From NCBI GenBank assembly GCA_049517415.1, contig JBEKSC010000002.1, forward strand, positions 32,001-96,000: a stretch of 64,000 nucleotides of DNA, written 5' to 3'. Positions 2,680 through 18,079 of this stretch are shown in pieces. The notes beneath the pieces were generated by a model. It saw only the letters and a list, made by a program, of their open reading frames with translations, made no database searches and had not been told where the DNA came from. This DNA is from Candidatus Bathyarchaeia archaeon (GTDB lineage: Archaea > Thermoproteota > Bathyarchaeia > 40CM-2-53-6). Each line of letters starts with the position of its first letter. The stretch's first letter is position 1. The translations under genes and the position numbers were made by a program.

Positions 2680-3165
2680 TTGGTTGAAGCTAGCTTGCCG
2701 AAGAAAACTTCGATCAGGAAGAGCAAACAGGCCACCGATTTCGCACTCGTGGACCATGCGGGGAGGTTGGTGAGGCTTCGTGATTTTCGCGGCAGGAAGG
2801 TTGTTCTCTTCTTCTATGTTCACGATGATACGCCAGGGTGTACGAAGGAAGCGTGCAACTTCCGGGACGGCTATGGACGCTTGAAAGCGAGGGATGTAGT
2901 GTTGCTAGGCATCAGCCCGGACCCGATAGAATCACACAACAATTTCGCGGACAAATACAACCTTCCGTATCCTCTGCTCGTTGACGCGAAGGCGGAGGTC
3001 GCAAAGAGGTTCGGCGTTTGGGGTAAGAAGAACATGTATGGCAGAACATACTTTGGAGTAATTCGCTGCACCTTCATCATCGACGAGACGGGTACAGTCG
3101 TGAAGGAATACAGGCGTGTGAAGGTGGATGGACACTTGGACCAAATTCTCAAAGACTTGGGATGA
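2680..3165 (+). CDS. bcp: Peroxiredoxin, BCP/PrxQ family
   Basis: DDTPGCTKEACNFRD active-site motif. Confidence 0.92.
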   Translation: MVEASLPKKTSIRKSKQATDFALVDHAGRLVRLRDFRGRKVVLFFYVHDDTPGCTKEACNFRDGYGRLKARDVVLLGISPDPIESHNNFADKYNLPYPLLVDAKAEVAKRFGVWGKKNMYGRTYFGVIRCTFIIDETGTVVKEYRRVKVDGHLDQILKDLG

Positions 3166-3665
3166 CTCTTAGGGCAACCAGCCTCAGCAAGGTGGATCCC
3201 ATGGTAAACTTGGACGTCGCGTATGTCCCAACCCCCAAGGACATCGTTCGAAGGATGCTTAGGCTGGCAAGCGTACGTCGCGGTGAAACCGTTTTCGACC
3301 TTGGAGCGGGAGACGGCCGAATCCTGATTGAGGCAGTGAGAGGGTTTGGGGCACAAGCCATAGGAGTAGAGGTAGACCCAGAACGACTAGTTCGTATGAA
3401 AGAACGATTAACGGCGACGGGCACAGAAGCCACGGTGATTCAAGGAGATTTCATGGATGCAAACGTCTCATTGGCCGACGTTGTTGCTATCTACCTTTCT
3501 GATTCGGTCAACGCTAAGCTAGAATCAAAACTGAGGAAAGAGCTCAAAACTGGGGCACGGGTTGTCTCCTTAGATTATACCCTTCCAGGCTGGGTGCCAG
3601 AGAAGGAGTTGACGGTCAAAAGCGGCGGTATTTCGCGTAAAATATACCTATATAGGGTCGCGTGA
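3162..3665 (+). CDS. Class I SAM-dependent methyltransferase (protein-lysine MTase-like)
   Basis: YVPTP, DLGAGDGRI, GVEVD motifs. Confidence 0.85.
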   Translation: MTLRATSLSKVDPMVNLDVAYVPTPKDIVRRMLRLASVRRGETVFDLGAGDGRILIEAVRGFGAQAIGVEVDPERLVRMKERLTATGTEATVIQGDFMDANVSLADVVAIYLSDSVNAKLESKLRKELKTGARVVSLDYTLPGWVPEKELTVKSGGISRKIYLYRVA

Positions 3666-3778
3666 AACGCGCGTGTACCATACCGTACAGGTATCTACAT
3701 AACTTACCCAGAGGGGGGCCGAAACTTGTAAATAAAGAAGCATGCTACGCTAGTATGTTAGCATGGGGGAGGTGAGAG

Positions 3779-3961
3779 ATGTTGTCTAAGTTCAAATTTC
3801 TCCTACCCGCAATAGTACTAATCATCGTAGTAGCGCTAATCCTGGCCTCAAGCAACGCTAGTTTCCTTACATTCTCGCACGCCTGGATCGCCAAGGCTCT
3901 ATTGGGTCAAGGTACTGGAGGCGGCGGTCACGGCATGGGTAGAATAATAGGGCATCATTAA
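3779..3961 (+). CDS. Small secreted or membrane peptide with Gly/His-rich tail
   Basis: Strong RBS GGAGGTGA; signal-peptide-like N-terminus; tail GQGTGGGGHGMGRIIGHH. Confidence 0.6.
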   Translation: MLSKFKFLLPAIVLIIVVALILASSNASFLTFSHAWIAKALLGQGTGGGGHGMGRIIGHH

Positions 3962-4050
3962 GGCCCTAGAGAGAGGCCTCTAGTTCATTCTCCTCCCCTT
4001 TTTAGTGTAAATTATAAAGTTATTATACTTGCGGCGCCATTTCCGCTTAA

Positions 4051-5226
4051 ATGCGAGCAAGGATGCTAGCGACTGAGAAGGTAGGGCTCCTCCAAAGGCA
4101 CAAAATTGTCACGGAGATCATGAAGCAACTCGACCCTACAAATATCAAGATCCTTTCCACGATGTGGGAAACTGGCCCACGGAACCTTCTCGAAGTTTCT
4201 AGAAAAACTGGTATACCATTTACCTCTGTGTATCATCGTGTGGGCAAGATTGAGGCAAAGTCAAAACGCCTCGCCACTGTGATTCCGCAGGTTTCCAAAC
4301 TTGGAATGGTAAGGATTGCTCTTTTCACCGCTGCTAGACCAGGCTCCGAAGAGAGCGTAACTACTGCGCTGAAGATACCCAACCTTTGGCGTTCCGTGAA
4401 CCGTTGCGAAGGCGCCTTCACACACGTGTCAATTCATGTCGTCCCTGTACAATTCATGAAACATTTCAGGACATACCTGAAACGACTTTCCGAATCAGGT
4501 TTGATTAAACAGTCGAAAATGTTCCTTACAGGAGAATACATTCCTAACTTCCCAGCTTTCAAGTACTACGACCCGTCCTCTAATCAATGGACATTTGACT
4601 GGGAGCGCTGGTTGAACGCGCTCAAACGGGACCCCACCAAGACGATCGAAGACCCGGAAAGTTATGCTATGCTTGCAGACGAGAAAGACCTGCTAATTAT
4701 CAAGGAACTTGAGAAGAATGCGCGACAGAGCTTCGCGGAGATTGCGCCGCTCATGGGAATATCTTTGCAAGGCGTCAAGTACCATTACGACAAGAAACTG
4801 GTTCCATCTGAAATTGTGAAGTATGTTGGTTACGATGTCTGGCCGTACCCCGAAGAAGTGTCGGCTTATCATGAGATCTTCCTCAAGTTCACTAGCACAA
4901 TAGAGATGAACAGGTTCTATTCCTTAGTCCGTGAATTGTTCTTTGTACTTGGCGTCTCAAAAGTACTTCACGAGAACTCATTGATCGTGCGAACCTACAC
5001 GCTACAAAACCAGGTTTGGAGCATGTTCTCTTTCTTCTCACAAATGGCGAAGGAAGGGATAATCGAATCATATTCTTCTGTTAGGCAAGATTTCAGCGGC
5101 AGAGAGACACAATCAATATCATTTGAGCTCTTCGACAGCGAGAAAGGATGGACTTTCGATTTAGATAACTGCCTGTCAGATCTAGCGAAACTAACTCAAC
5201 TCGTCCCAGCCGTTCAAAAGGTCTAA
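4051..5226 (+). CDS. Tandem wHTH Lrp/AsnC-like transcriptional regulator
   Basis: Two HTH repeats (LDPTNIKIL...SVYHRV; DEKDLLIIKELEKNARQSFAEIA...VKYHY). Confidence 0.8.
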   Translation: MRARMLATEKVGLLQRHKIVTEIMKQLDPTNIKILSTMWETGPRNLLEVSRKTGIPFTSVYHRVGKIEAKSKRLATVIPQVSKLGMVRIALFTAARPGSEESVTTALKIPNLWRSVNRCEGAFTHVSIHVVPVQFMKHFRTYLKRLSESGLIKQSKMFLTGEYIPNFPAFKYYDPSSNQWTFDWERWLNALKRDPTKTIEDPESYAMLADEKDLLIIKELEKNARQSFAEIAPLMGISLQGVKYHYDKKLVPSEIVKYVGYDVWPYPEEVSAYHEIFLKFTSTIEMNRFYSLVRELFFVLGVSKVLHENSLIVRTYTLQNQVWSMFSFFSQMAKEGIIESYSSVRQDFSGRETQSISFELFDSEKGWTFDLDNCLSDLAKLTQLVPAVQKV

Positions 5227-5229
5227 TGC

Positions 5230-5296
5230 TGGTCCCGCGGACCGGAGTTTCGTAGAGTTTAACATCGTTTCAGTCGCTCTAAGCCTAGTAGGCTGA
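5230..5296 (-). repeat. Degenerate partial duplicate of the tRNA-Tyr 3' end plus intron fragments
   Basis: 5230..5255 matches 5341..5366 at 24/26; 5282..5296 matches 5438..5452 at 14/15. Confidence 0.75.
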
Positions 5297-5340
5297 ACTC
5301 CAAATCGCTTCGGACCAAGACCTAGTGTAAATGACTATTA

Positions 5341-5542
5341 TGGTCCCGCGGGCCGGAGTTTCATAGGGGTTTAGGCCCTATTTTGAATTCGCCGAGCCAG
5401 CAAGGGGCTCTCCAGCGACACTCCGGTGTCCGTTGTTAGCCCAGTAGGCTGACATGGGTACGCCTTGGGCGCACACCTACAGCGTCTCCGTCGCTCCGAA
5501 TAAGAGAGACTCGGAAGCTCTACCAGGCTGAGCTACCGCGGG
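5341..5542 (-). tRNA. tRNA-Tyr(GTA) with four introns: 30/31 (5484..5511), 37/38 (5428..5476), 53/54 (5388..5411), 59/60 (5358..5381)
   Basis: Spliced product CCCGCGG TA GCTC AGCCTGGTA GAGC T TCCGG CT GTA GA CCGGA GTGTC GCTGG TTCAAAT CCGGC CCGCGGG A CCA; archaeal Tyr identity C1-G72 and A73; each intron forms a BHB. Confidence 0.92.
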
Positions 5543-5677
5543 ACTGATTCAAAACCTTCGCTCTGTAGCCTATAAGGTTTCATGAACCATACGCCGAACC
5601 ACCCGTCTTAGTGGTCCGAAAATACTCGCCCGGATTAAATCCCTGGAGGCATTCTCCTCCGCGTTAGGTTAGTTAGG

Positions 5678-6085
5678 ATGATATTCAAGCGATCTTTCCG
5701 TGTTCACTGGGTTGACACAGACACTGCAGGCGTCATGCACTTTAGCAACTTCTTCCGTTACTTCGAAGCTTGCGAAGAAGAATTCTATCGTTCCCTCTCT
5801 CTGCCGCTGACTGAGATCCACGATAGATTTGGTGTATTATTACCCCGCGTCGAGGCCCACTGTCAATACAAAGCCGCGTGCAGATTCGATGAGCTGATCG
5901 ATGTTACGTTGAAAATTCGCGAGGTCCAGAAGAAGGTCATCATCTACGATTTCCAAGTTATGCGTCAATCAGATGGAAAACTGGCGGCGGAAGGCTTCGT
6001 GAAATGCATTGCTGTAGATTCAGAATGGAAAGCCGTCTCCTTACCCGGTGAAGTCTCAAGAACAATTCGTAATAGCATACTCTAA
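5678..6085 (+). CDS. Acyl-CoA thioesterase, YbgC/4HBT hot-dog family
   Basis: RVHWVDTDTAGVMHFSNFFRYFE motif. Confidence 0.9.
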   Translation: MIFKRSFRVHWVDTDTAGVMHFSNFFRYFEACEEEFYRSLSLPLTEIHDRFGVLLPRVEAHCQYKAACRFDELIDVTLKIREVQKKVIIYDFQVMRQSDGKLAAEGFVKCIAVDSEWKAVSLPGEVSRTIRNSIL

Positions 6086-6128
6086 AGACTAGATCGTGGC
6101 TGAAACTATACAACGTAAGGGTTAGAAA

Positions 6129-6794
6129 CTATCGCTGCGACCGTCCACACTTCTCGCAGAAAATTAGATCCTTGGCATTCTTCTTGCCGCAGAATTTGCA
6201 TTTCCATCGGTCAGTTTGAGCTGAGATTGCGTCATGCTTTTTTCCGCCCCTGATTCCGAGCCAGCATAGGATGATTCCTATCAACAGGAACTCGTAGCCG
6301 GCGAACTCAATAATTGGATTCAGGAGCGTTACATTCTCGACGGTGTTTAAGCTAAAGATTACGACTCGGCGAGCCGTGTCCTCGTTGTCGAAGACGAAGT
6401 AATAAGTGCTGCTAGTTGTGGGTATGAAGGTGAAGTTGGAGGATATGACCGTCGGCCGAACGAGGATGATTGCGCTGGGCTTTCCTGCTCGCCATAGGGA
6501 GAAGTTCCCCTGATCCATCACGTAGAATGCTACCTCATGCCCATCGGAGACCTCCAATGCCCCTTCCACCTGGGTACCCCCTCTTAGGTCGGCCGAGAGT
6601 GAGGTGTAGTTTGTGGCTGGCACTGCGATGAGTGTCGGTGGTAGGATTGGGAGCAGAGTCTGAGCGTGCGATGCTAAACCGAAGGTCTGTGCAATTGGGC
6701 TGAGAAACAGTGGGCCCTGCTCAAGCGTGAACACTCCCGCTAGGAGTAGGAGCACGCCGATTGTCAAAACCTTTCTTCGCATCATCCTCACCAT
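6129..6794 (-). CDS. Membrane protein with extracellular beta domain and C-terminal zinc ribbon
   Basis: N- and C-terminal TM helices, YYFVFDN, WKCKFCG...FCEKCG. Confidence 0.7.
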   Translation of the reverse strand: MVRMMRRKVLTIGVLLLLAGVFTLEQGPLFLSPIAQTFGLASHAQTLLPILPPTLIAVPATNYTSLSADLRGGTQVEGALEVSDGHEVAFYVMDQGNFSLWRAGKPSAIILVRPTVISSNFTFIPTTSSTYYFVFDNEDTARRVVIFSLNTVENVTLLNPIIEFAGYEFLLIGIILCWLGIRGGKKHDAISAQTDRWKCKFCGKKNAKDLIFCEKCGRSQR

Positions 6795-6834
6795 TATTCA
6801 GCTAGTTTAGTTGTTCCATCGCTCCTCGACAGGG

Positions 6835-6949
6835 TGGCGGGCCCGCGGGGATTCGAACCCCGGATCCCAGGCTTTCACCGCTTCCGCCCCGAAGGCTTAC
6901 ACGACTCTTACGCATCTCTGTGTCTTAATCCTGGCTCGACTACGGGCCC
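6835..6949 (-). tRNA. tRNA-Arg(TCG) with two introns: 29/30 (6897..6917) and 37/38 (6874..6888)
   Basis: GGGCCCG acceptor; spliced anticodon arm CAGGC CT TCG GA GCCTG; T arm CGGGG TTCGAAT CCCCG; GCCA end. Confidence 0.9.
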
Positions 6950-7153
6950 TTGTTGCCGGCAGCCATAGACGAAGATTGGCGTATATGGTTAGCGAAACGC
7001 CCGTGGACCGAGCACGGGAAGCTTAGATTGCGGTCCCGGTAACATCGTATTGAAGACGATACCCCCCTCTGATATCCCTTCATGGAGAAAAAGGAATACT
7101 GTTAGGTACCATACGTCTATGCGTCGAACATGTGGTGAAAACAACTGCCCATC

Positions 7154-7579
7154 TTGTCGGGTGAGGAAATTGAAAGCCGCGTGCGAAACGGTTCGCTTGC
7201 CCTCACGCCTTTCGAACGGGTCTGCCTGAATGGAGGCGGTTACGACTTGCGCCTGGGAATGGAAGTGATCATTCCACCCGGAGAAAATCGCTTGGTAGCA
7301 ACCCTTGAGAGAGTTGAGTTGGGAGATGATATAGCTGGGACATTGCATCTTCGCTCCTCCCTTGCACGCAAGGGAATAATCGCCAGCCTAGCGTTGGTAG
7401 ACCCAGGCTTTCACGGGCAACTAACGATTTCTCTCTTCAACGGAGGAGAAGAATTATTCAAAATGAGTCGGAATGGCAAGTTCGTGCAACTCGTGCTACA
7501 TGAGCTTAGCAGCAAGACGAATTTTATGTACAGTGGGAAGTACCAAGATAGCCAAGGAATTGTAGATAGCCGCCCCTAG
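7154..7579 (+). CDS. dcd: dCTP deaminase / dUTPase family
   Basis: GYDLRLG, RSSLARKG, VDPGFHGQLT, YSGKYQ. Confidence 0.88.
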   Translation: MSGEEIESRVRNGSLALTPFERVCLNGGGYDLRLGMEVIIPPGENRLVATLERVELGDDIAGTLHLRSSLARKGIIASLALVDPGFHGQLTISLFNGGEELFKMSRNGKFVQLVLHELSSKTNFMYSGKYQDSQGIVDSRP

Positions 7580-7681
7580 GCACCCCACTCTTTGTGTCAA
7601 TACATGTCGAAAGTATTATTACCGGTGTGCATGAGCATGTGAATATCCCTACTTGTCAAATCGACTACAGAAGGCGGCATC

Positions 7682-8431
7682 TTGAAAGCAGGTTCACGTA
7701 TATCCGACCTAAAGTACAAGCTCATGACCATAGAGCTCCTCAACTTAGCGAAAAACTACTACACATACAGAGAACTCGCACAAATCATCGGACTCCCTGA
7801 GACCGTTCTAAGCAGATACGTAAAGGGCCACGTGCTACCGACGATAGATCGAGCGCAGAACATCAACAGAACCCTACAGAAAATAATGCGTCTCGAAGGG
7901 GAGATTCAGCAAAGAATCCGTTTCGACGAATCTGGATACTTCGACAACACTAAACTCATCTCAGACACACTGCTCCTCGAACGTGCAGTTCAACATGCCG
8001 TAAACGCATTCGCTGGCATGCGCATTACAAAGATCCTTGCGGCAGCCGTTGACGGTGTACCGTTGGCGGCGCTTCTCGCACACAGGCTTGGTGTTGGCCT
8101 CATAATCGCAAAGAAAACTAGGGAAGTGGGAGTACGAGAGTTCATTGAAGAAGTCTACATCCCCAACAGGACTGCAATAATGGTCAGTCTATATGTCCCA
8201 CGAGACGCGCTAAGAAAAGGGGATTGCGTACTCATAGTGGACGATGTCATCGATAGCGGCGAAACACAGATTGCATTAACCCGAATCGTTCAGAAAGCCA
8301 AAGCAGAAGTCACAGGCATGTATGCTCTCATCAGTACGGGTTCAGAGTGGAAGAGCAGGATCGAAGCAGTCACTCATTGCCCAGTAGAAATCGTTTTGCA
8401 AGTGGGCAAGAAACCACTACAAGAAGTCTGA
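7682..8431 (+). CDS. HTH-fused purine phosphoribosyltransferase-family protein (PurR-like regulator)
   Basis: N-terminal HTH (TYRELA...LSRYVKGHVLP); PRPP motif VLIVDDVIDSGET. Confidence 0.85.
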   Translation: MKAGSRISDLKYKLMTIELLNLAKNYYTYRELAQIIGLPETVLSRYVKGHVLPTIDRAQNINRTLQKIMRLEGEIQQRIRFDESGYFDNTKLISDTLLLERAVQHAVNAFAGMRITKILAAAVDGVPLAALLAHRLGVGLIIAKKTREVGVREFIEEVYIPNRTAIMVSLYVPRDALRKGDCVLIVDDVIDSGETQIALTRIVQKAKAEVTGMYALISTGSEWKSRIEAVTHCPVEIVLQVGKKPLQEV

Positions 8432-9772: not shown

Positions 9773-10336
9773 ATGGAGAACAACCTCGGCTCAACACCTC
9801 AAGCTCCCGCGCAGGTCCAAGAAAAACCGCCGTTTACCCCTTGGAACGCGGTGTCCGGTCCGCGTTTGGTATACATACCCTATAAATCTGAACTCATGGA
9901 GTTAAGGGACCGAGGATTTGGCGACCTCCGGAAGGACAAGCTTGTCCTTTCTCCGTACGAATCATTCTATCTTCTAGAGAAACAGAAGATTAGAGTGTTT
10001 GCCAAGGATGCAGGCCGGGAGTTGGAGCTTCGAGACTTAGTCCAGAAGTATTCAGTTGACAAACCCGAGATCTGGATCAAGTACTTGGTGTACCGTGACC
10101 TACGGGAGCGTGGGTACATAGTCCGTGAGTCCACTAGGGCCTTCGATTTTGACATTTACGGAAAAGGGCCGCTGAGGCGTTTAATCTCAATCGTATACGA
10201 AGGCGGCGAAGCGAGCCTTCGTAAATTAAGTAAACTGCTTCAATATTCTGACAAAGAGAAGAAGGAGTTGATACTAGCCGTCGTTGATAGGCGGACCGAT
10301 ATTGTGTACTATACGTTGAGTTCGTTGAATGTCTAA
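9773..10336 (+). CDS. endA: tRNA splicing endonuclease subunit (probably the structural beta subunit)
   Basis: LSPYESFYLLE, YLVYRDLRERGYIV, ELILAVVD; no His after DIYGKGP. Confidence 0.8.
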   Translation: MENNLGSTPQAPAQVQEKPPFTPWNAVSGPRLVYIPYKSELMELRDRGFGDLRKDKLVLSPYESFYLLEKQKIRVFAKDAGRELELRDLVQKYSVDKPEIWIKYLVYRDLRERGYIVRESTRAFDFDIYGKGPLRRLISIVYEGGEASLRKLSKLLQYSDKEKKELILAVVDRRTDIVYYTLSSLNV

Positions 10337-10992: not shown

Positions 10993-12306
10993 TTGACCGC
11001 AAAAGCGTTCACGCTCCCGCGGGGCATTAGAGATACGGACTCAGTGGAGATGAATCAAAGGCTTTGGCTCTATGGTAAGATACGTGATGTGGTCCGCAGA
11101 TACGGGTTCCAAATGGTTGAACCTGCAACGATTGAGAACCTCAATACTCTTGAAGCCAAGAGTGGCCCAGCGATACGGAATGAGATTTACTGGTTCAAGG
11201 ATAAGGGCGGGAGAAGCCTTGGCCTTCGCTTCGACCTCACCGTCGGCATAGCAAGGATGGTCGCGAACCGATCCGACCTACCCGAGCCTATGAAATTCGC
11301 CACAATTGGCGGGAACTGGCGCTATGATGAGCCACAATACGGGAGATATCGCTACTTCACCCAATGGGACGTAGAAATCTTCGGCTCAGAAAGTCCTTTG
11401 GCAGATGCAGAGGTGATCTGTGTCGGGGCAGACATCCTAAGCAGCGTCGGGTTGAAAGACTGCATTATCAGAATTAGCAACAGGAAACTCACAGAAGCTT
11501 ACCTCAAGCAATTGGGCATCAAATCGGGCAAGAGACTGGATCAGTGCCTTAGGATCATCGATAAGCTCAGAAAGGCTAACCGCGAGCAACTGGAAAAAGA
11601 GTTCCAAGCTGCTAAGATCGGGAAAGAAGCAGTAAAGGAAATTTTCTCGTTCATCTCCCTGAACGGGTCTCCAGCAAGTGTCCTTGCGAAGCTGAACAGT
11701 TTCACTTTCACTGAAGAGAATGCCAAGAAAGGTTTGGAGGAGTTGACGAATCTAGCAGACGCCCTAGCATCATTAGGGCGTTTAGGGATCTGTGTATATG
11801 ACCTTAGCATAGTGCGCGGAATTGGATACTACGACGGAATTGTCTTCGAAGCTTTCGATAAGGGTGGGGAAGGCGTTGGCTCAATCTTCGGTGGCGGGAG
11901 ATACGACCGGTTGTGCAGAATATATGGAAAGCGTGACATACCAGCAACCGGCGTGGCGGGTGGGATCGAGCGCCTAATGATTTCACTGGAACGAGACAAC
12001 CTGTTTCCGAAGGGCCCTATGGGTGCCAAGGTCTTCATCGCTACGGTCCAAGAAGGCCTCAAGCACGAAGCAACGAAGCTGGCACAAAAGCTTCGAGATA
12101 ACGGAATCGCAACCGAGGTTGACTTGAAGACACGCCCTTTGGGCAAGCAGTTAGAATACGCGAACGCAGCTAAGATCCCATTCTTGATAGTGCTCGGCCC
12201 ACAGGAACTTCAAACCCAAACCGTCAAAGTTAAGGAAATGGCCACTCGAAACGAGATGCCCGTACCCCTCGACGCTCTTGTGGAAAAGCTCCAGTCTTTG
12301 AATTAG
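10993..12306 (+). CDS. hisS: Histidine--tRNA ligase
   Basis: PRGIRD, LRFDLT, RYDEPQYGRYR, RGIGYYDG, GGGRYD, GIERL; anticodon-binding domain. Confidence 0.97.
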   Translation: MTAKAFTLPRGIRDTDSVEMNQRLWLYGKIRDVVRRYGFQMVEPATIENLNTLEAKSGPAIRNEIYWFKDKGGRSLGLRFDLTVGIARMVANRSDLPEPMKFATIGGNWRYDEPQYGRYRYFTQWDVEIFGSESPLADAEVICVGADILSSVGLKDCIIRISNRKLTEAYLKQLGIKSGKRLDQCLRIIDKLRKANREQLEKEFQAAKIGKEAVKEIFSFISLNGSPASVLAKLNSFTFTEENAKKGLEELTNLADALASLGRLGICVYDLSIVRGIGYYDGIVFEAFDKGGEGVGSIFGGGRYDRLCRIYGKRDIPATGVAGGIERLMISLERDNLFPKGPMGAKVFIATVQEGLKHEATKLAQKLRDNGIATEVDLKTRPLGKQLEYANAAKIPFLIVLGPQELQTQTVKVKEMATRNEMPVPLDALVEKLQSLN

Positions 12307-17678: not shown

Positions 17679-17827
17679 TGGCGGGCCCGCGGGGATTTGA
17701 ACCCCGGACCTCTGTACCAGTGCTGGGCTGGTTCTACAGCTTTTTCCGGTGTTCCTTAGGGGGTTCGGCAACAAATTCCGCTTTATGTGCGGAGCCTGCC
17801 GCTCTATCCAACCTGAGCTACGGGCCC
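17679..17827 (-). tRNA. tRNA-Arg(CCT) with three introns: 30/31 (17764..17795), 37/38 (17742..17756), 45/46 (17710..17733); C at position 33
   Basis: Spliced GGGCCCG TA GCTC AGGTTGGATA GAGC G GCAGC CC CCT AA GCTGT AGGTC CGGGG TTCAAAT CCCCG CGGGCCC G CCA. Confidence 0.82.
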
Positions 17828-17917: not shown

Positions 17918-18079
17918 GCGGGGATTCCCGAGCCAGGTCAAAGGGGCAGGACCACCCGGCGCGGTGGGGCCACACTTAAGATCAGAACTTGCCTTGGGAG
18001 ATGAGGAGACATCCTGTGGCGTAGAGCCAGCGGATGGGCGCGTAAGCCTTCAGGGGTTCGAATCCCCTTCCCCGCACCA
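17918..18079 (+). tRNA. tRNA-Leu(TAA) with three introns: 30/31 (17951..17973), 37/38 (17981..18010), variable-arm loop (18025..18045)
   Basis: Spliced GCGGGGA TT CCCGAGCCAGGTCAAAGGG G CAGGA CT TAA GA TCCTG TGGCGTAGGCCTTC AGGGG TTCGAAT CCCCT TCCCCGC A CCA. Confidence 0.92.

What the first reader, a model, noticed from the sequence alone, without database searches (positions are those of the whole stretch)
5341..5542. A tRNA-Tyr gene with four introns (125 of 202 nt intronic)
Seen BHBs: 30/31 CTTC-CG^A...GGAG-AC^G (28 nt); 37/38 CTGT-AG^G...ACGG-AC^A (49 nt); 53/54 CGCT-GG^A-GAGCC...GGCTC-GGCG-AA^T (24 nt); 59/60 TTCA-AA^A-TAGGG...CCCTA-TGAA-AC^T (24 nt). The product has all stems paired and the archaeal Tyr identity elements C1-G72 and A73. 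From memory (unverified), the usual reported maximum for cis-spliced archaeal tRNAs is three introns, so a five-exon tRNA may exceed it.
Basis: partly seen in the sequence, partly recalled or inferred. Interest (0 to 1): 0.9.

Follow-up and report, generated by a model that had tools for sequence, protein, structure and literature searches.

The report
Four-intron tRNA-Tyr gene in Bathyarchaeia
A tyrosine transfer-RNA gene of an uncultured soil or peat archaeon really is cut into five pieces by four small protein-spliced introns, and sister species carry the same gene with two to five introns, so it is a strong new example of a known archaeal oddity and not a new mechanism.

Summary
Confirmed. 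Window 5542..5341 (minus strand) is a 202-nt tRNA-Tyr(GTA) gene. It has four bulge-helix-bulge (BHB) introns of 28, 49, 24 and 24 nt at positions 30/31, 37/38, 53/54 and 59/60. Removing them gives a 77-nt product with a fully paired cloverleaf and encoded CCA. A blind parser of my own ranks the same solution best.

I parsed 46 orthologues in the same order. Their exons are 69-74 of 74, or 72-77 of 77, identical to G000. They carry 2 (11 genomes), 3 (7), 4 (14) or 5 (14) introns, gained or lost exactly at the predicted junctions. Intron-internal stems covary.

The genome encodes a two-subunit EndA whose catalytic subunit has the Crenarchaea-specific loop, plus RtcB. No second tRNA-Tyr was found. 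No RNA data could be obtained.

Reviews give a maximum of three introns (PMC4033280, PMC8450103). An October 2026 preprint reports up to five in Asgard archaea. This scan has also noted four-intron tRNA genes before, on other DNA (DPANN, Asgard). So this is a new member of a known kind, apparently undescribed for Bathyarchaeia.

The gene is followed by a decayed partial copy. Two relatives have a LAGLIDADG endonuclease gene at that spot.

The parts
5571..5575 (-). TATA-like element (TTATA) about 29-33 nt upstream of the first tRNA nucleotide; putative archaeal promoter
   Evidence: Read from the sequence. The motif 'cttatagg' recurs at the same distance in most genus-level orthologues while the flanks diverge. 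Promoter function is inferred.
5512..5542 (-). Exon 1 (31 nt): acceptor 5' strand, D-arm, tRNA positions 1-30
5484..5511 (-). Intron 1 (28 nt) at 30/31. BHB: CTTC-CG^A ... GGAG-AC^G. Inner helix is 7 pairs with one mismatch; outer helix is only 2 pairs (HBh'-like).
   Evidence: Present in 41 of the 46 parsed orthologues. Five of its 7 inner-helix pairs show changes on both sides.
5477..5483 (-). Exon 2 (7 nt micro-exon): positions 31-37, including anticodon GTA
5428..5476 (-). Intron 2 (49 nt) at the canonical 37/38 site. BHB: CTGT-AG^G ... ACGG-AC^A. Contains two conserved internal hairpins. The outer helix (anticodon stem) is complete only once intron 1 is removed.
5412..5427 (-). Exon 3 (16 nt): positions 38-53
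5388..5411 (-). Intron 3 (24 nt) at 53/54. BHB: CGCT-GG^A ... GGCG-AA^T. Inner helix 5 bp; no outer helix (HBh').
   Evidence: Three of its 5 inner pairs change on both sides. Precisely absent, together with intron 4, in close relatives G014, G019 and G013.
5382..5387 (-). Exon 4 (6 nt micro-exon): T-loop positions 54-59
5358..5381 (-). Intron 4 (24 nt) at 59/60. BHB: TTCA-AA^A ... TGAA-AC^T. Inner helix 5 bp. The outer helix (T stem, 5 bp) forms only after intron 3 is removed.
   Evidence: Two of its 5 inner pairs change on both sides.
5341..5357 (-). Exon 5 (17 nt): position 60, T-stem 3' strand, acceptor 3' strand, A73 and encoded CCA
5230..5301 (-). Decayed partial copy of a tRNA-Tyr 3' portion: the 3' half of a different-type intron 2, the end of an intron 4 and a pseudo exon 5 with CCA. 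It lacks exons 3 and 4.
   Evidence: and alignment A2 to the intact distal copy of G004. The flank after it equals the flank directly after the gene in G014.
9773..10336 (+). EndA paralogue (187 aa) without the catalytic histidine; probably the structural beta subunit of the splicing endonuclease. It lies 4.2 kb from the gene.
   Evidence: Pfam PF01974 + PF02778; alignment to solved EndAs; a second, catalytic paralogue elsewhere in the genome

Best explanation
This is the genome's working tRNA-Tyr(GUA) gene, written in five exons of 31, 7, 16, 6 and 17 nt. It is probably transcribed from a TATA-like promoter about 30 nt upstream as a precursor of at least 202 nt. The heterotetramer-type splicing endonuclease cuts inside the two 3-nt bulges of each of four BHB motifs. 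That enzyme has a catalytic alpha subunit with a Crenarchaea-specific loop and a beta-like subunit encoded 4 kb away. RtcB then joins the exons. Shown here: the sequence geometry, the cloverleaf of the product, exact presence/absence of the introns in relatives, covariation of the intron helices, and presence of the enzymes. Inferred: transcription, actual cleavage, and a preferred order. Introns 1 and 3 are self-contained HBh' motifs. Removing them completes the anticodon stem and T stem, which are the outer helices of the BHBs of introns 2 and 4. BHB3 and BHB4 also share one nucleotide (T54). A pairwise order (1 before 2, 3 before 4) would keep the 7-nt and 6-nt micro-exons tethered.
For: My acceptor- and CCA-anchored parser, given only the 202 nt, returns the same four introns as its top-scoring parse out of 15. 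All four BHBs have H 4/4.

I parsed 46 orthologues: 32 loci and 14 of 15 loci. Exons are 69-74 of 74, or 72-77 of 77, identical to G000. The intervening stretches differ in sequence and come and go exactly at the junctions. For example, G016 has introns 3 and 4, while G019 and G013 share its flanks and lack both. The same holds for G000 versus G014.

On 12 four-intron orthologues, 97.5% of cells are paired. Eleven pairs change on both sides, against 4.1 +/- 1.2 in shuffles (0 of 500 reach it) and 1-4 in slid controls. Ten of these pairs lie in the inner helices of introns 1, 3 and 4.

Machinery: there are two EndA paralogues. One matches the A. pernix catalytic subunit 3P1Z_B at E 7.5e-39. It keeps the histidine at the position mutated in 3AJV and has lysines aligned to K44 and R46 of the specificity loop. 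The other lacks that histidine. RtcB scores 572.9 bits.

No second tRNA-Tyr was found. There is one DNA match in G000. ARAGORN's other 'Tyr' call at C6:56704-56798 is Val(GAC) when spliced at a BHB, and it has G1-C72.
Against: There is no RNA evidence. No RNA run could be listed, so transcription and splicing are not shown.

The minimum-free-energy fold of the whole 202-nt precursor contains BHB3 and the inner helix of BHB4, but not the helices of BHB1 or BHB2.

Introns 1 and 3 lack a proper outer helix (2 and 0 pairs), so they need a broad-specificity enzyme.

My blind parser did not recover the Tyr parse for 10 of the 13 orthologue loci re-run. It gave no parse for 7 and only lower-scoring parses with other anticodons for 3, because some introns fall below its jump criteria. 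The orthologue intron counts therefore rest on homology-guided alignment.

The genome is a 59-contig assembly with 6.86% estimated contamination.

The locus is unstable: a decayed copy of the 3' part follows the gene.

I could not score the spliced product with the tRNAscan-SE or Infernal archaeal model.
Confidence: 0.9

Rival explanations
1. The locus is a decaying pseudogene, and the cell's tRNA-Tyr comes from another gene not in the assembly.
For: The assembly is fragmented (59 contigs). A decayed partial copy lies directly downstream, so this locus has been rearranged.
Against: Exons are 74 of 74 identical to those of 10 other four-intron genus members, while the introns diverge with compensatory changes. 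That pattern is purifying selection on both product and splice motifs. Estimated completeness is 100%. No other Tyr gene was found by DNA similarity, ARAGORN or my parser.
Confidence: 0.03
2. There are fewer than four introns. Part of what is called intron is retained, for example as a long variable arm or an enlarged loop, as in the alternative three-intron parses.
For: My parser also lists three-intron parses of the same 202 nt with a 9- or 20-nt variable region (score 14.5 against 15.0).
Against: Those parses have a non-standard T loop or a different anticodon. Relatives G014, G019 and G013 lack introns 3 and 4 exactly and have the plain T arm. G008, G009, G005, G003 and G002 lack intron 1 exactly. 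The mature form is therefore the 77-nt one.
Confidence: 0.02
3. The downstream pseudo exon 5 (window 5246-5230) is used as an alternative 3' exon, giving a second tRNA-Tyr isodecoder or another tRNA.
For: My parser produced an ARAGORN-accepted 'Asn(GTT)' parse (score 14.0) joining the Tyr 5' end to the remnant's 3' end.
Against: That parse needs introns of 60-82 nt with H 3/4 in two cases, and a non-standard 9-nt variable region. The remnant lacks exons 3 and 4. Most relatives have no remnant.
Confidence: 0.01
4. Assembly or binning artefact: the intervening stretches are chimeric joins.
For: It is a metagenome-assembled genome with 6.86% estimated contamination.
Against: The same four-intron architecture occurs in 13 other, independently assembled genomes. 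The five-intron form occurs in 14.
Confidence: 0.01

Closest known systems
Multiple-intron tRNA genes of Thermoproteales (Sugahara et al. 2008, as cited in PMC4033280 and PMC8450103; passages read)
   Same: Cis introns with BHB or relaxed BHB motifs at canonical and non-canonical positions. Splicing by a heterotetrameric EndA with the Crenarchaea-specific loop. Introns are sometimes so close that one must go before the next motif forms (PMC8450103 passage).
   Different: The published maximum there is three introns per gene. This gene has four, relatives have five, and the lineage is Bathyarchaeia. I found no sign of intragenomic copying of these introns, unlike the intron transposition proposed for Thermoproteales.
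[quoted passage not shown]
   Same: Most tRNA genes are interrupted. There are many non-canonical positions, up to five intervening sequences per gene, introns at BHB-capable sites, and repeated gains.
   Different: It is a different phylum-level lineage; the preprint text contains no 'Bathyarchae'. Here each of the four or five introns has an explicit 4/4 BHB plus comparative presence/absence within one genus. The preprint found no route of intron arrival. Here there are footprints of replacement of the gene's 3' segment.
Split and tri-split tRNA genes (Nanoarchaeum, Caldivirga; PMC4033280 passage)
   Same: The tRNA is made from several pieces joined at BHB-like junctions by EndA and a ligase.
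   Different: Those pieces are transcribed from separate loci and joined in trans. Here all five exons lie in order on one strand within 202 nt.
tRNA-gene-targeted integration that duplicates the 3' part of the tRNA gene, and LAGLIDADG homing endonucleases of archaeal rRNA introns (both recalled from general knowledge; no paper read here)
   Same: A complete gene is followed by a displaced partial 3' copy. In G004 and G011 a LAGLIDADG-type ORF lies between the two.
   Different: No integrase was seen in the roughly 0.9 kb between the copies. The endonuclease ORF is on the opposite strand and outside any BHB intron. Its target site is unknown.

Membership tests
Archaeal BHB (EndA-spliced) tRNA introns | [quoted passage not shown] | tested here: met
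   All four introns have H 4/4 (G-U allowed), and 3-nt bulges are placed so that cutting after the second nucleotide gives the exact mature sequence.
Archaeal BHB (EndA-spliced) tRNA introns | At least one flanking helix (h or h') of 2 or more pairs | tested here: met
   Inner helices are 3 (7 with one mismatch), 3, 5 and 5 pairs. Outer helices are 2, 1, 0 and 0 in the primary transcript, and 2, 6, 0 and 5 once the other introns are out.
Archaeal BHB (EndA-spliced) tRNA introns | Removal restores a canonical cloverleaf tRNA | tested here: met
   ARAGORN calls tRNA-Tyr(GTA), 77 nt, all stems paired. A tRNAscan-SE/Infernal score of the spliced product could not be computed.
Archaeal BHB (EndA-spliced) tRNA introns | Splicing endonuclease and RNA ligase present in the genome | tested here: met
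   Two EndA paralogues and RtcB.
Archaeal BHB (EndA-spliced) tRNA introns | Excision observed in RNA | not testable with these tools
   No RNA run could be listed for this DNA.
Heterotetrameric (alpha-beta)2 EndA with Crenarchaea-specific loop | Two separate subunit genes: one catalytic (Tyr/His/Lys) and one non-catalytic | tested here: met
   The C10 protein (190 aa) aligns end to end with A. pernix 3P1Z_B and keeps the histidine that is alanine in 3AJV. The window protein (187 aa) has a gap at that histidine in its alignment to 5X89. The two are only 33% identical over 81 residues. Physical assembly was not tested.
Heterotetrameric (alpha-beta)2 EndA with Crenarchaea-specific loop | Specificity loop with the conserved basic residues (K44 and R46 in A. 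pernix; PMC3241643, abstract and passages) | tested here: met
   The loop region aligns with only a one-residue gap just after it. Lysines sit at both positions (residue numbering counted by me from the printed alignment).
Split / trans-spliced tRNA | Exons encoded at separate loci with their own promoters | tested here: not met
   All exons are contiguous, in order and on one strand.
Self-splicing group I or II intron | Match to a ribozyme covariance model | tested here: not met
   The Rfam gathering-threshold scan of the window found only two tRNA hits. The introns are 24-49 nt.

The most novel reading that the evidence does not exclude
In this Bathyarchaeia lineage, the intron complement of a tRNA gene may turn over by replacement of whole gene segments, not by single-intron insertion. 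A foreign 3' portion of tRNA-Tyr, carrying its own set of T-arm introns and sometimes travelling with a free-standing LAGLIDADG homing endonuclease gene, would displace the resident 3' portion, which then decays downstream. That would explain three observations: introns 3 and 4 appear and vanish together between close relatives; alleles are mosaics of two intron-2 types and three T-arm states; and G000 keeps a 72-nt remnant. It would also give a concrete route for how intron DNA enters tRNA genes, which the 2026 Asgard preprint leaves open.
Probability: 0.25. Interest if true: 0.7.

Novelty: new member of a known kind. Interest (0 to 1): 0.5.

Why it matters
It extends tRNA genes with more than three introns to Bathyarchaeia, an abundant soil and sediment group. 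In the held library, my three relevant searches found no description of its tRNA introns. Standard finders miss the gene entirely, so such genomes will be annotated as lacking tRNA-Tyr.

The 2-, 3-, 4- and 5-intron alleles of one gene in one order, some differing between near-identical flanks, form a natural series. It can be used to study intron gain and loss, the order of multi-intron splicing, and how 6-7-nt micro-exons are handled. The displaced 3' copies, with a homing-endonuclease gene in two relatives, give a testable lead on how introns arrive.

Tried and rejected
- **Unspliced window.** ARAGORN and the Rfam gathering scan do not see the gene.
- **RNA evidence.** For window 3000-8000, no RNA holder was listed.
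- **ARAGORN with introns on the whole genome.** It called a second 'tRNA-Tyr(gta)' at C6:56704-56798. I rejected it: none of the BHB-compatible single-intron splices gives Tyr, the BHB-compatible one gives Val(GAC), and the gene has G1-C72. The script stopped with an error after printing these rows.
- **Parser false positives.** The parser gives many low-scoring parses in long regions: 79 of 104 3' ends were not ARAGORN-confirmed. Nine of the 1174 regions hit the per-region time limit.
- **Parser on orthologues.** It missed the Tyr parse in 10 of the 13 loci re-run.
- **Doubtful parses.** The 'Asn(GTT)' parse that joins the gene to the downstream remnant, and a 403-nt 'Arg(CCG)' parse at C15, are treated as artefacts or doubtful. 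The 'Pro(TGG)' three-intron parse at C2:49918-50079 has weak BHBs (inner helix 0) and is probably mis-parsed.
- **Spliced-alignment misplacements.** It misplaced junctions in G015 and G001, and misplaced the third intron of G004-type genes, G039 and G031. These were corrected by BHB sliding, anchored patterns or the parser. The pattern I wrote for the 9/10 intron was one base off, so the and values are used.
- **Loci left out.** The 17 loci L013-L029 were left out by a length limit. Those I cross-checked by contig and coordinates are the same genomes as G handles.
- It used a mis-specified acceptor helix and is superseded.
- **Intragenomic copies of the four introns.** None was found beyond self hits; the best other E-value was 0.49.
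- **Whole-precursor MFE.** It does not show BHB1 or BHB2.
- **Integrase.** No integrase-like ORF lies between the two Tyr copies of G004.

Full report
**What is there.** The minus strand of window 5542..5341 reads as a 202-nt gene that begins with a tRNA 5' end and ends in an acceptor strand, A73 and CCA. Neither ARAGORN nor the Rfam gathering scan sees it unspliced. These are gene positions 32-59, 67-115, 132-155 and 162-185, or window 5511-5484, 5476-5428, 5411-5388 and 5381-5358. This leaves 77 nt, which ARAGORN calls tRNA-Tyr(GTA). Every stem is paired, the D loop is 9 nt, the variable loop is 5 nt, and C1-G72, A73 and encoded CCA are present. C1-G72 and A73 as archaeal tyrosine identity elements is recalled knowledge, not checked in a paper here.

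**Independent parse.** It anchors on a 7-bp acceptor stem followed by N-CCA. It then reads the cloverleaf from the 3' end and may jump over any stretch of 11-130 nt with a BHB-like junction. On the 202 nt it gives 15 parses, and the best (score 15.0) is exactly the four-intron Tyr solution. Run over the whole genome, it examined 1174 acceptor-like regions. Of these, 107 regions gave a parse and 9 hit the time limit. This came to 104 distinct 3' ends with some parse, of which ARAGORN confirmed 25 as tRNAs. All 21 parses scoring 14.5 or more were confirmed, and no unconfirmed parse scored above 14.0. The genome therefore serves as its own null.

**Splice-motif geometry.** The canonical archaeal motif has a 4-bp helix between four exon bases and four intron bases, and a 3-nt bulge on each strand cut after its second base. 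It fits all four junctions with 4 of 4 pairs:
- CTTC-CG^A / GGAG-AC^G
- CTGT-AG^G / ACGG-AC^A
- CGCT-GG^A / GGCG-AA^T
- TTCA-AA^A / TGAA-AC^T

The intron-internal helices have 3 contiguous pairs (7 with one mismatch), 3, 5 and 5 pairs. The exon-exon outer helices have 2, 1, 0 and 0 pairs in the primary transcript. Once the other introns are out they have 2, 6, 0 and 5. Introns 1 and 3 are therefore relaxed HBh' motifs. Introns 2 and 4 become full hBHBh' motifs only after their upstream neighbour is removed.

**Comparative evidence.** A DNA search of 41 related genomes found the locus in 37. I fetched 31 orthologues and aligned the spliced G000 sequence to them with free long gaps. The 17 loci L013-L029 were left out by a length limit. 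I then refined the junctions by BHB geometry. Exons are 69-74 of 74 identical to G000. The 23 genomes of the genus, G000 included, fall into four classes:
- 11 have introns at 30/31, 37/38, 53/54 and 59/60.
- 3 (G014, G019, G013) have only 30/31 and 37/38.
- 4 (G004, G011, G006, G010) have 30/31, 37/38 and a different 59/60 intron.
- 5 (G008, G009, G005, G003, G002) have a different 54-nt 37/38 intron plus 59/60.

The differences are exact at the predicted junctions. G016 and its flank-sharing relatives G019 and G013 differ by the joint presence of introns 3 and 4. So do G000 and G014, which is 97% identical to G000 over the upstream flank and 5' part of the gene.

On a MAFFT alignment of 12 four-intron orthologues, the structure I specified comprised the acceptor stem, four H helices, four inner helices and two hairpins of intron 2. 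It is paired in 97.5% of cells. Eleven pairs change on both sides, against 4.1 +/- 1.2 in column shuffles (0 of 500 reach it) and 1-4 when partners are slid by 1-3 columns. Five of these pairs are in the inner helix of intron 1, three in intron 3, two in intron 4 and one in the acceptor stem. The tool warns that related sequences can beat shuffles, and that a structure derived from one member beats slid versions. The anchored per-intron tables over all orthologues show the same compensatory pattern.

**Five introns in relatives.** Three genomes of other families (G025, G034, G037) have all four introns plus a fifth at 9/10. Its junctions are GCGG-TA^A / CCGY-AA^G, it is 23-29 nt long, H is 4 of 4 and the inner helix is 4-5 pairs. 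I then searched the order with the G025 gene: 76 of 105 genomes matched, and 13 of 16 in family f2 matched. I parsed 15 of the 30 new loci; the other 15 repeated genomes already parsed. Fourteen could be parsed, and one at a contig end had no anchors. Eleven more f2 genomes carry the five-intron form, with 75-77 of 77 exon identity and H 4 of 4 at almost every junction. All 13 f2 genomes that matched have five introns.

Over all 46 parsed orthologues, 11 have two introns, 7 have three, 14 have four and 14 have five.

**Is it the only tRNA-Tyr?** The 471-nt query found one place in G000. ARAGORN with introns called one other 'Tyr(gta)', at C6:56704-56798. Its proposed intron has no BHB. The BHB-compatible splice of that gene gives Val(GAC), and it has G1-C72. 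My parser's two other GTA parses score 10.0 and 10.5 and are not ARAGORN-confirmed. I therefore found no second tRNA-Tyr. The assembly is in 59 contigs, with 100% estimated completeness.

**Machinery.** The window itself encodes a 187-aa EndA-family protein at 9773-10336 (Pfam PF01974 and PF02778). The genome holds a second paralogue on contig C10. The C10 protein (190 aa) aligns over its whole length with the catalytic subunit of Aeropyrum pernix EndA (3P1Z_B, E 7.5e-39). It keeps the histidine that is alanine in the mutant entry 3AJV. It also has lysines at the positions of K44 and R46 of the Crenarchaea-specific loop. Hirata et al. showed that this loop confers broad substrate specificity (PMC3241643, abstract and passages). 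The window protein has a gap where that histidine would be and is only distantly related to the C10 protein. This fits a structural beta subunit. RtcB is present (572.9 bits). These facts fit a heterotetramer-type enzyme able to cut relaxed motifs at non-canonical positions. Assembly and activity are inferred.

**How it probably works.**
- *Transcription.* It is inferred to start after a TTATA element 29-33 nt upstream. This element is conserved in position among genus members.
- *Cleavage and joining.* Eight cuts and four ligations are needed.
- *Overlap of neighbouring motifs.* The 7-nt exon 2 and the 6-nt exon 4 each lie between two introns, and the motifs of neighbouring introns overlap. 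The 2-bp outer helix of BHB1 uses C32 and U33, which are also the first two bases of the central helix of BHB2. T54 is both the third bulge base of BHB3 and the first paired base of BHB4.
- *Preferred order.* Taken with the outer-helix counts above, I infer introns 1 and 3 first, then 2 and 4. This order would also keep the micro-exons covalently attached. tRNAscan-SE's authors describe the same dependency for closely spaced introns (PMC8450103 passage).
- *Against a simple picture.* The thermodynamic fold of the full precursor forms BHB3 and part of BHB4 but not BHB1 or BHB2.

**Genome context.** Only 18 Rfam tRNA hits pass threshold in 2.65 Mb, so most tRNA genes here are interrupted. Among the 25 ARAGORN-confirmed parses, 1 has no intron, 8 have one, 6 have two, 3 have three and 7 have four. 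Of the seven, one is an artefact that joins the Tyr gene to the downstream remnant, and one (403 nt, score 13.0) is doubtful. That leaves Tyr plus four others:
- Lys(TTT), C2:31009-31198
- Pro(GGG), C6:94952-95131
- Pro(CGG), C19:52406-52580
- Leu(CAG), C4:118814-119008

Pro(GGG) has H 4 of 4 and inner helices of 4-5 pairs at all four junctions. I did not check these four against relatives. Four introns is thus not exceptional within this genome.

**The downstream remnant and a homing endonuclease.** Forty nucleotides after the gene's CCA lies a 72-nt stretch (window 5301..5230). It repeats the 3' half of an intron 2, the end of an intron 4 and an exon 5 with CCA.

In G004 and G011 the complete gene is followed by a 270-aa ORF on the opposite strand. 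That ORF matches LAGLIDADG_3 (PF14528, E 3.8e-6). After it comes a partial gene copy that starts at exon 2. The copy carries the 54-nt type of intron 2, exon 3, intron 3, exon 4, intron 4 and exon 5 with CCA.

The G000 remnant aligns to that distal copy, with about 50 nt deleted (exon 3 to the start of intron 4). It also shares the distal copy's 3' flank. The same flank follows the gene directly in G014.

So the resident 3' part of the gene has been displaced by another allele's 3' part at least once. Alleles in the genus are mosaics of two intron-2 types, presence or absence of intron 1, and three T-arm states.

Homologues of the endonuclease occur in 9 of 41 genomes searched. In 5 of these 9 loci a tRNA or tRNA-like gene lies within about 550 nt (within about 400 nt of the nearest one). 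These are the two Tyr loci, two Rfam tRNAs flanking G000's own copy at C9:47504-48211, a two-intron tRNA-Ala in G023, and a weak tRNA-like hit in G007. Whether the endonuclease drives the replacement is a hypothesis only.

The four introns have no other copies in G000, so intragenomic intron transposition is not supported for them.

**Lineage.** The closest public records of the window's EndA-like protein are titled Candidatus Bathyarchaeia or Bathyarchaeota archaeon. Two carry bacterial bin names.

**What is known.** I read passages stating a maximum of three introns per archaeal tRNA gene in PMC4033280 and PMC8450103. [quoted passage not shown] The preprint 10.1101/2023.11.21.568159 reports that over half of the tRNA genes of three Asgard genomes have multiple introns. 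[quoted passage not shown] Its text has no occurrence of 'Bathyarchae', 'homing' or 'LAGLIDADG'; its supplements were not readable.

Searches of the held library found no archaeal case beyond these:
- 'tRNA' + 'four introns' + 'archaea': 28 papers, 20 listed.
- 'Bathyarchaeia' + 'tRNA intron': 1 paper, not relevant.
- 'Bathyarchaeota' + 'tRNA' + 'bulge-helix-bulge': 2 papers, not relevant.
- A 2021-onward search on archaeal tRNA intron terms.

Subscription journals are not covered. Earlier notes of this scan list four-intron tRNA genes in DPANN and Asgard genomes. They are unchecked by me.

**Verdict.** The observation and the reading are right. The mechanism is the known one. The intron count exceeds the textbook maximum but not the most recent preprint, and relatives exceed it again with five. 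I class it as a new member of a known kind. What adds value is the lineage, the allele series and the replacement footprints.

Noticed in passing
L011 1721-2533 (minus; G004) and L033 (G011); G000 contig C9:47504-48211 (outside the window): A free-standing LAGLIDADG-type endonuclease ORF (270 aa, PF14528) sits between the complete tRNA-Tyr gene and a displaced partial copy in two relatives. Homologues occur in 9 of 41 genomes searched. In 5 of those 9 loci a tRNA or tRNA-like gene lies within about 550 nt.
   Followed up: partly
Loci L038, L040, L043, L053-L062, L071, directly upstream of the first tRNA base: All 14 five-intron tRNA-Tyr genes have a conserved leader string '..ggtcccgcg..' (one has ggtctcgcg) abutting +1. 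It repeats the acceptor-strand sequence. It is absent from the 2- to 4-intron genes printed. Its function is unknown; it might pair with the acceptor region while the 9/10 intron is processed.
   Followed up: no
window 5428-5476 (minus), intron 2: The canonical 37/38 intron is much more conserved than the other three. It has two hairpins kept even across families. No C/D-box-like motif was seen by eye. The reason for the conservation is unexplained.
   Followed up: partly
G000 C2:31009-31198 (about 0.8 kb before the window start), C6:94952-95131, C19:52406-52580, C4:118814-119008: Four more tRNA genes (Lys-TTT, Pro-GGG, Pro-CGG, Leu-CAG) are parsed with four BHB introns each by my parser and accepted by ARAGORN after splicing. 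They were not checked against relatives.
   Followed up: partly
window 17682-17827 (minus), 17918-18079 (plus) and 6835-6949 (minus): Further interrupted tRNA genes lie in the window: an Rfam tRNA hit of 146 nt (ARAGORN: Trp-CCA with a 61-nt intron), a divergent neighbour whose parse is uncertain, and a gene ARAGORN calls Arg-GCG. tRNA-Asp at 512-587 is the only uninterrupted tRNA in the window.
   Followed up: no
window 9773-10336 (+) and 10993-12306 (+): The EndA beta-like gene and a histidyl-tRNA synthetase gene lie within 7 kb of the tRNA-Tyr gene, a loose cluster of tRNA-related genes. The EndA to tRNA-Tyr neighbourhood is kept in relatives (G014 and G018 contig coordinates).
   Followed up: no
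G000 C6:56704-56798: ARAGORN with intron search mislabels a tRNA-Val(GAC) gene, which has a 17-nt intron at 39/40, as tRNA-Tyr(gta). It places an intron where no BHB exists. This is a trap for automated annotation of this lineage.
   Followed up: yes
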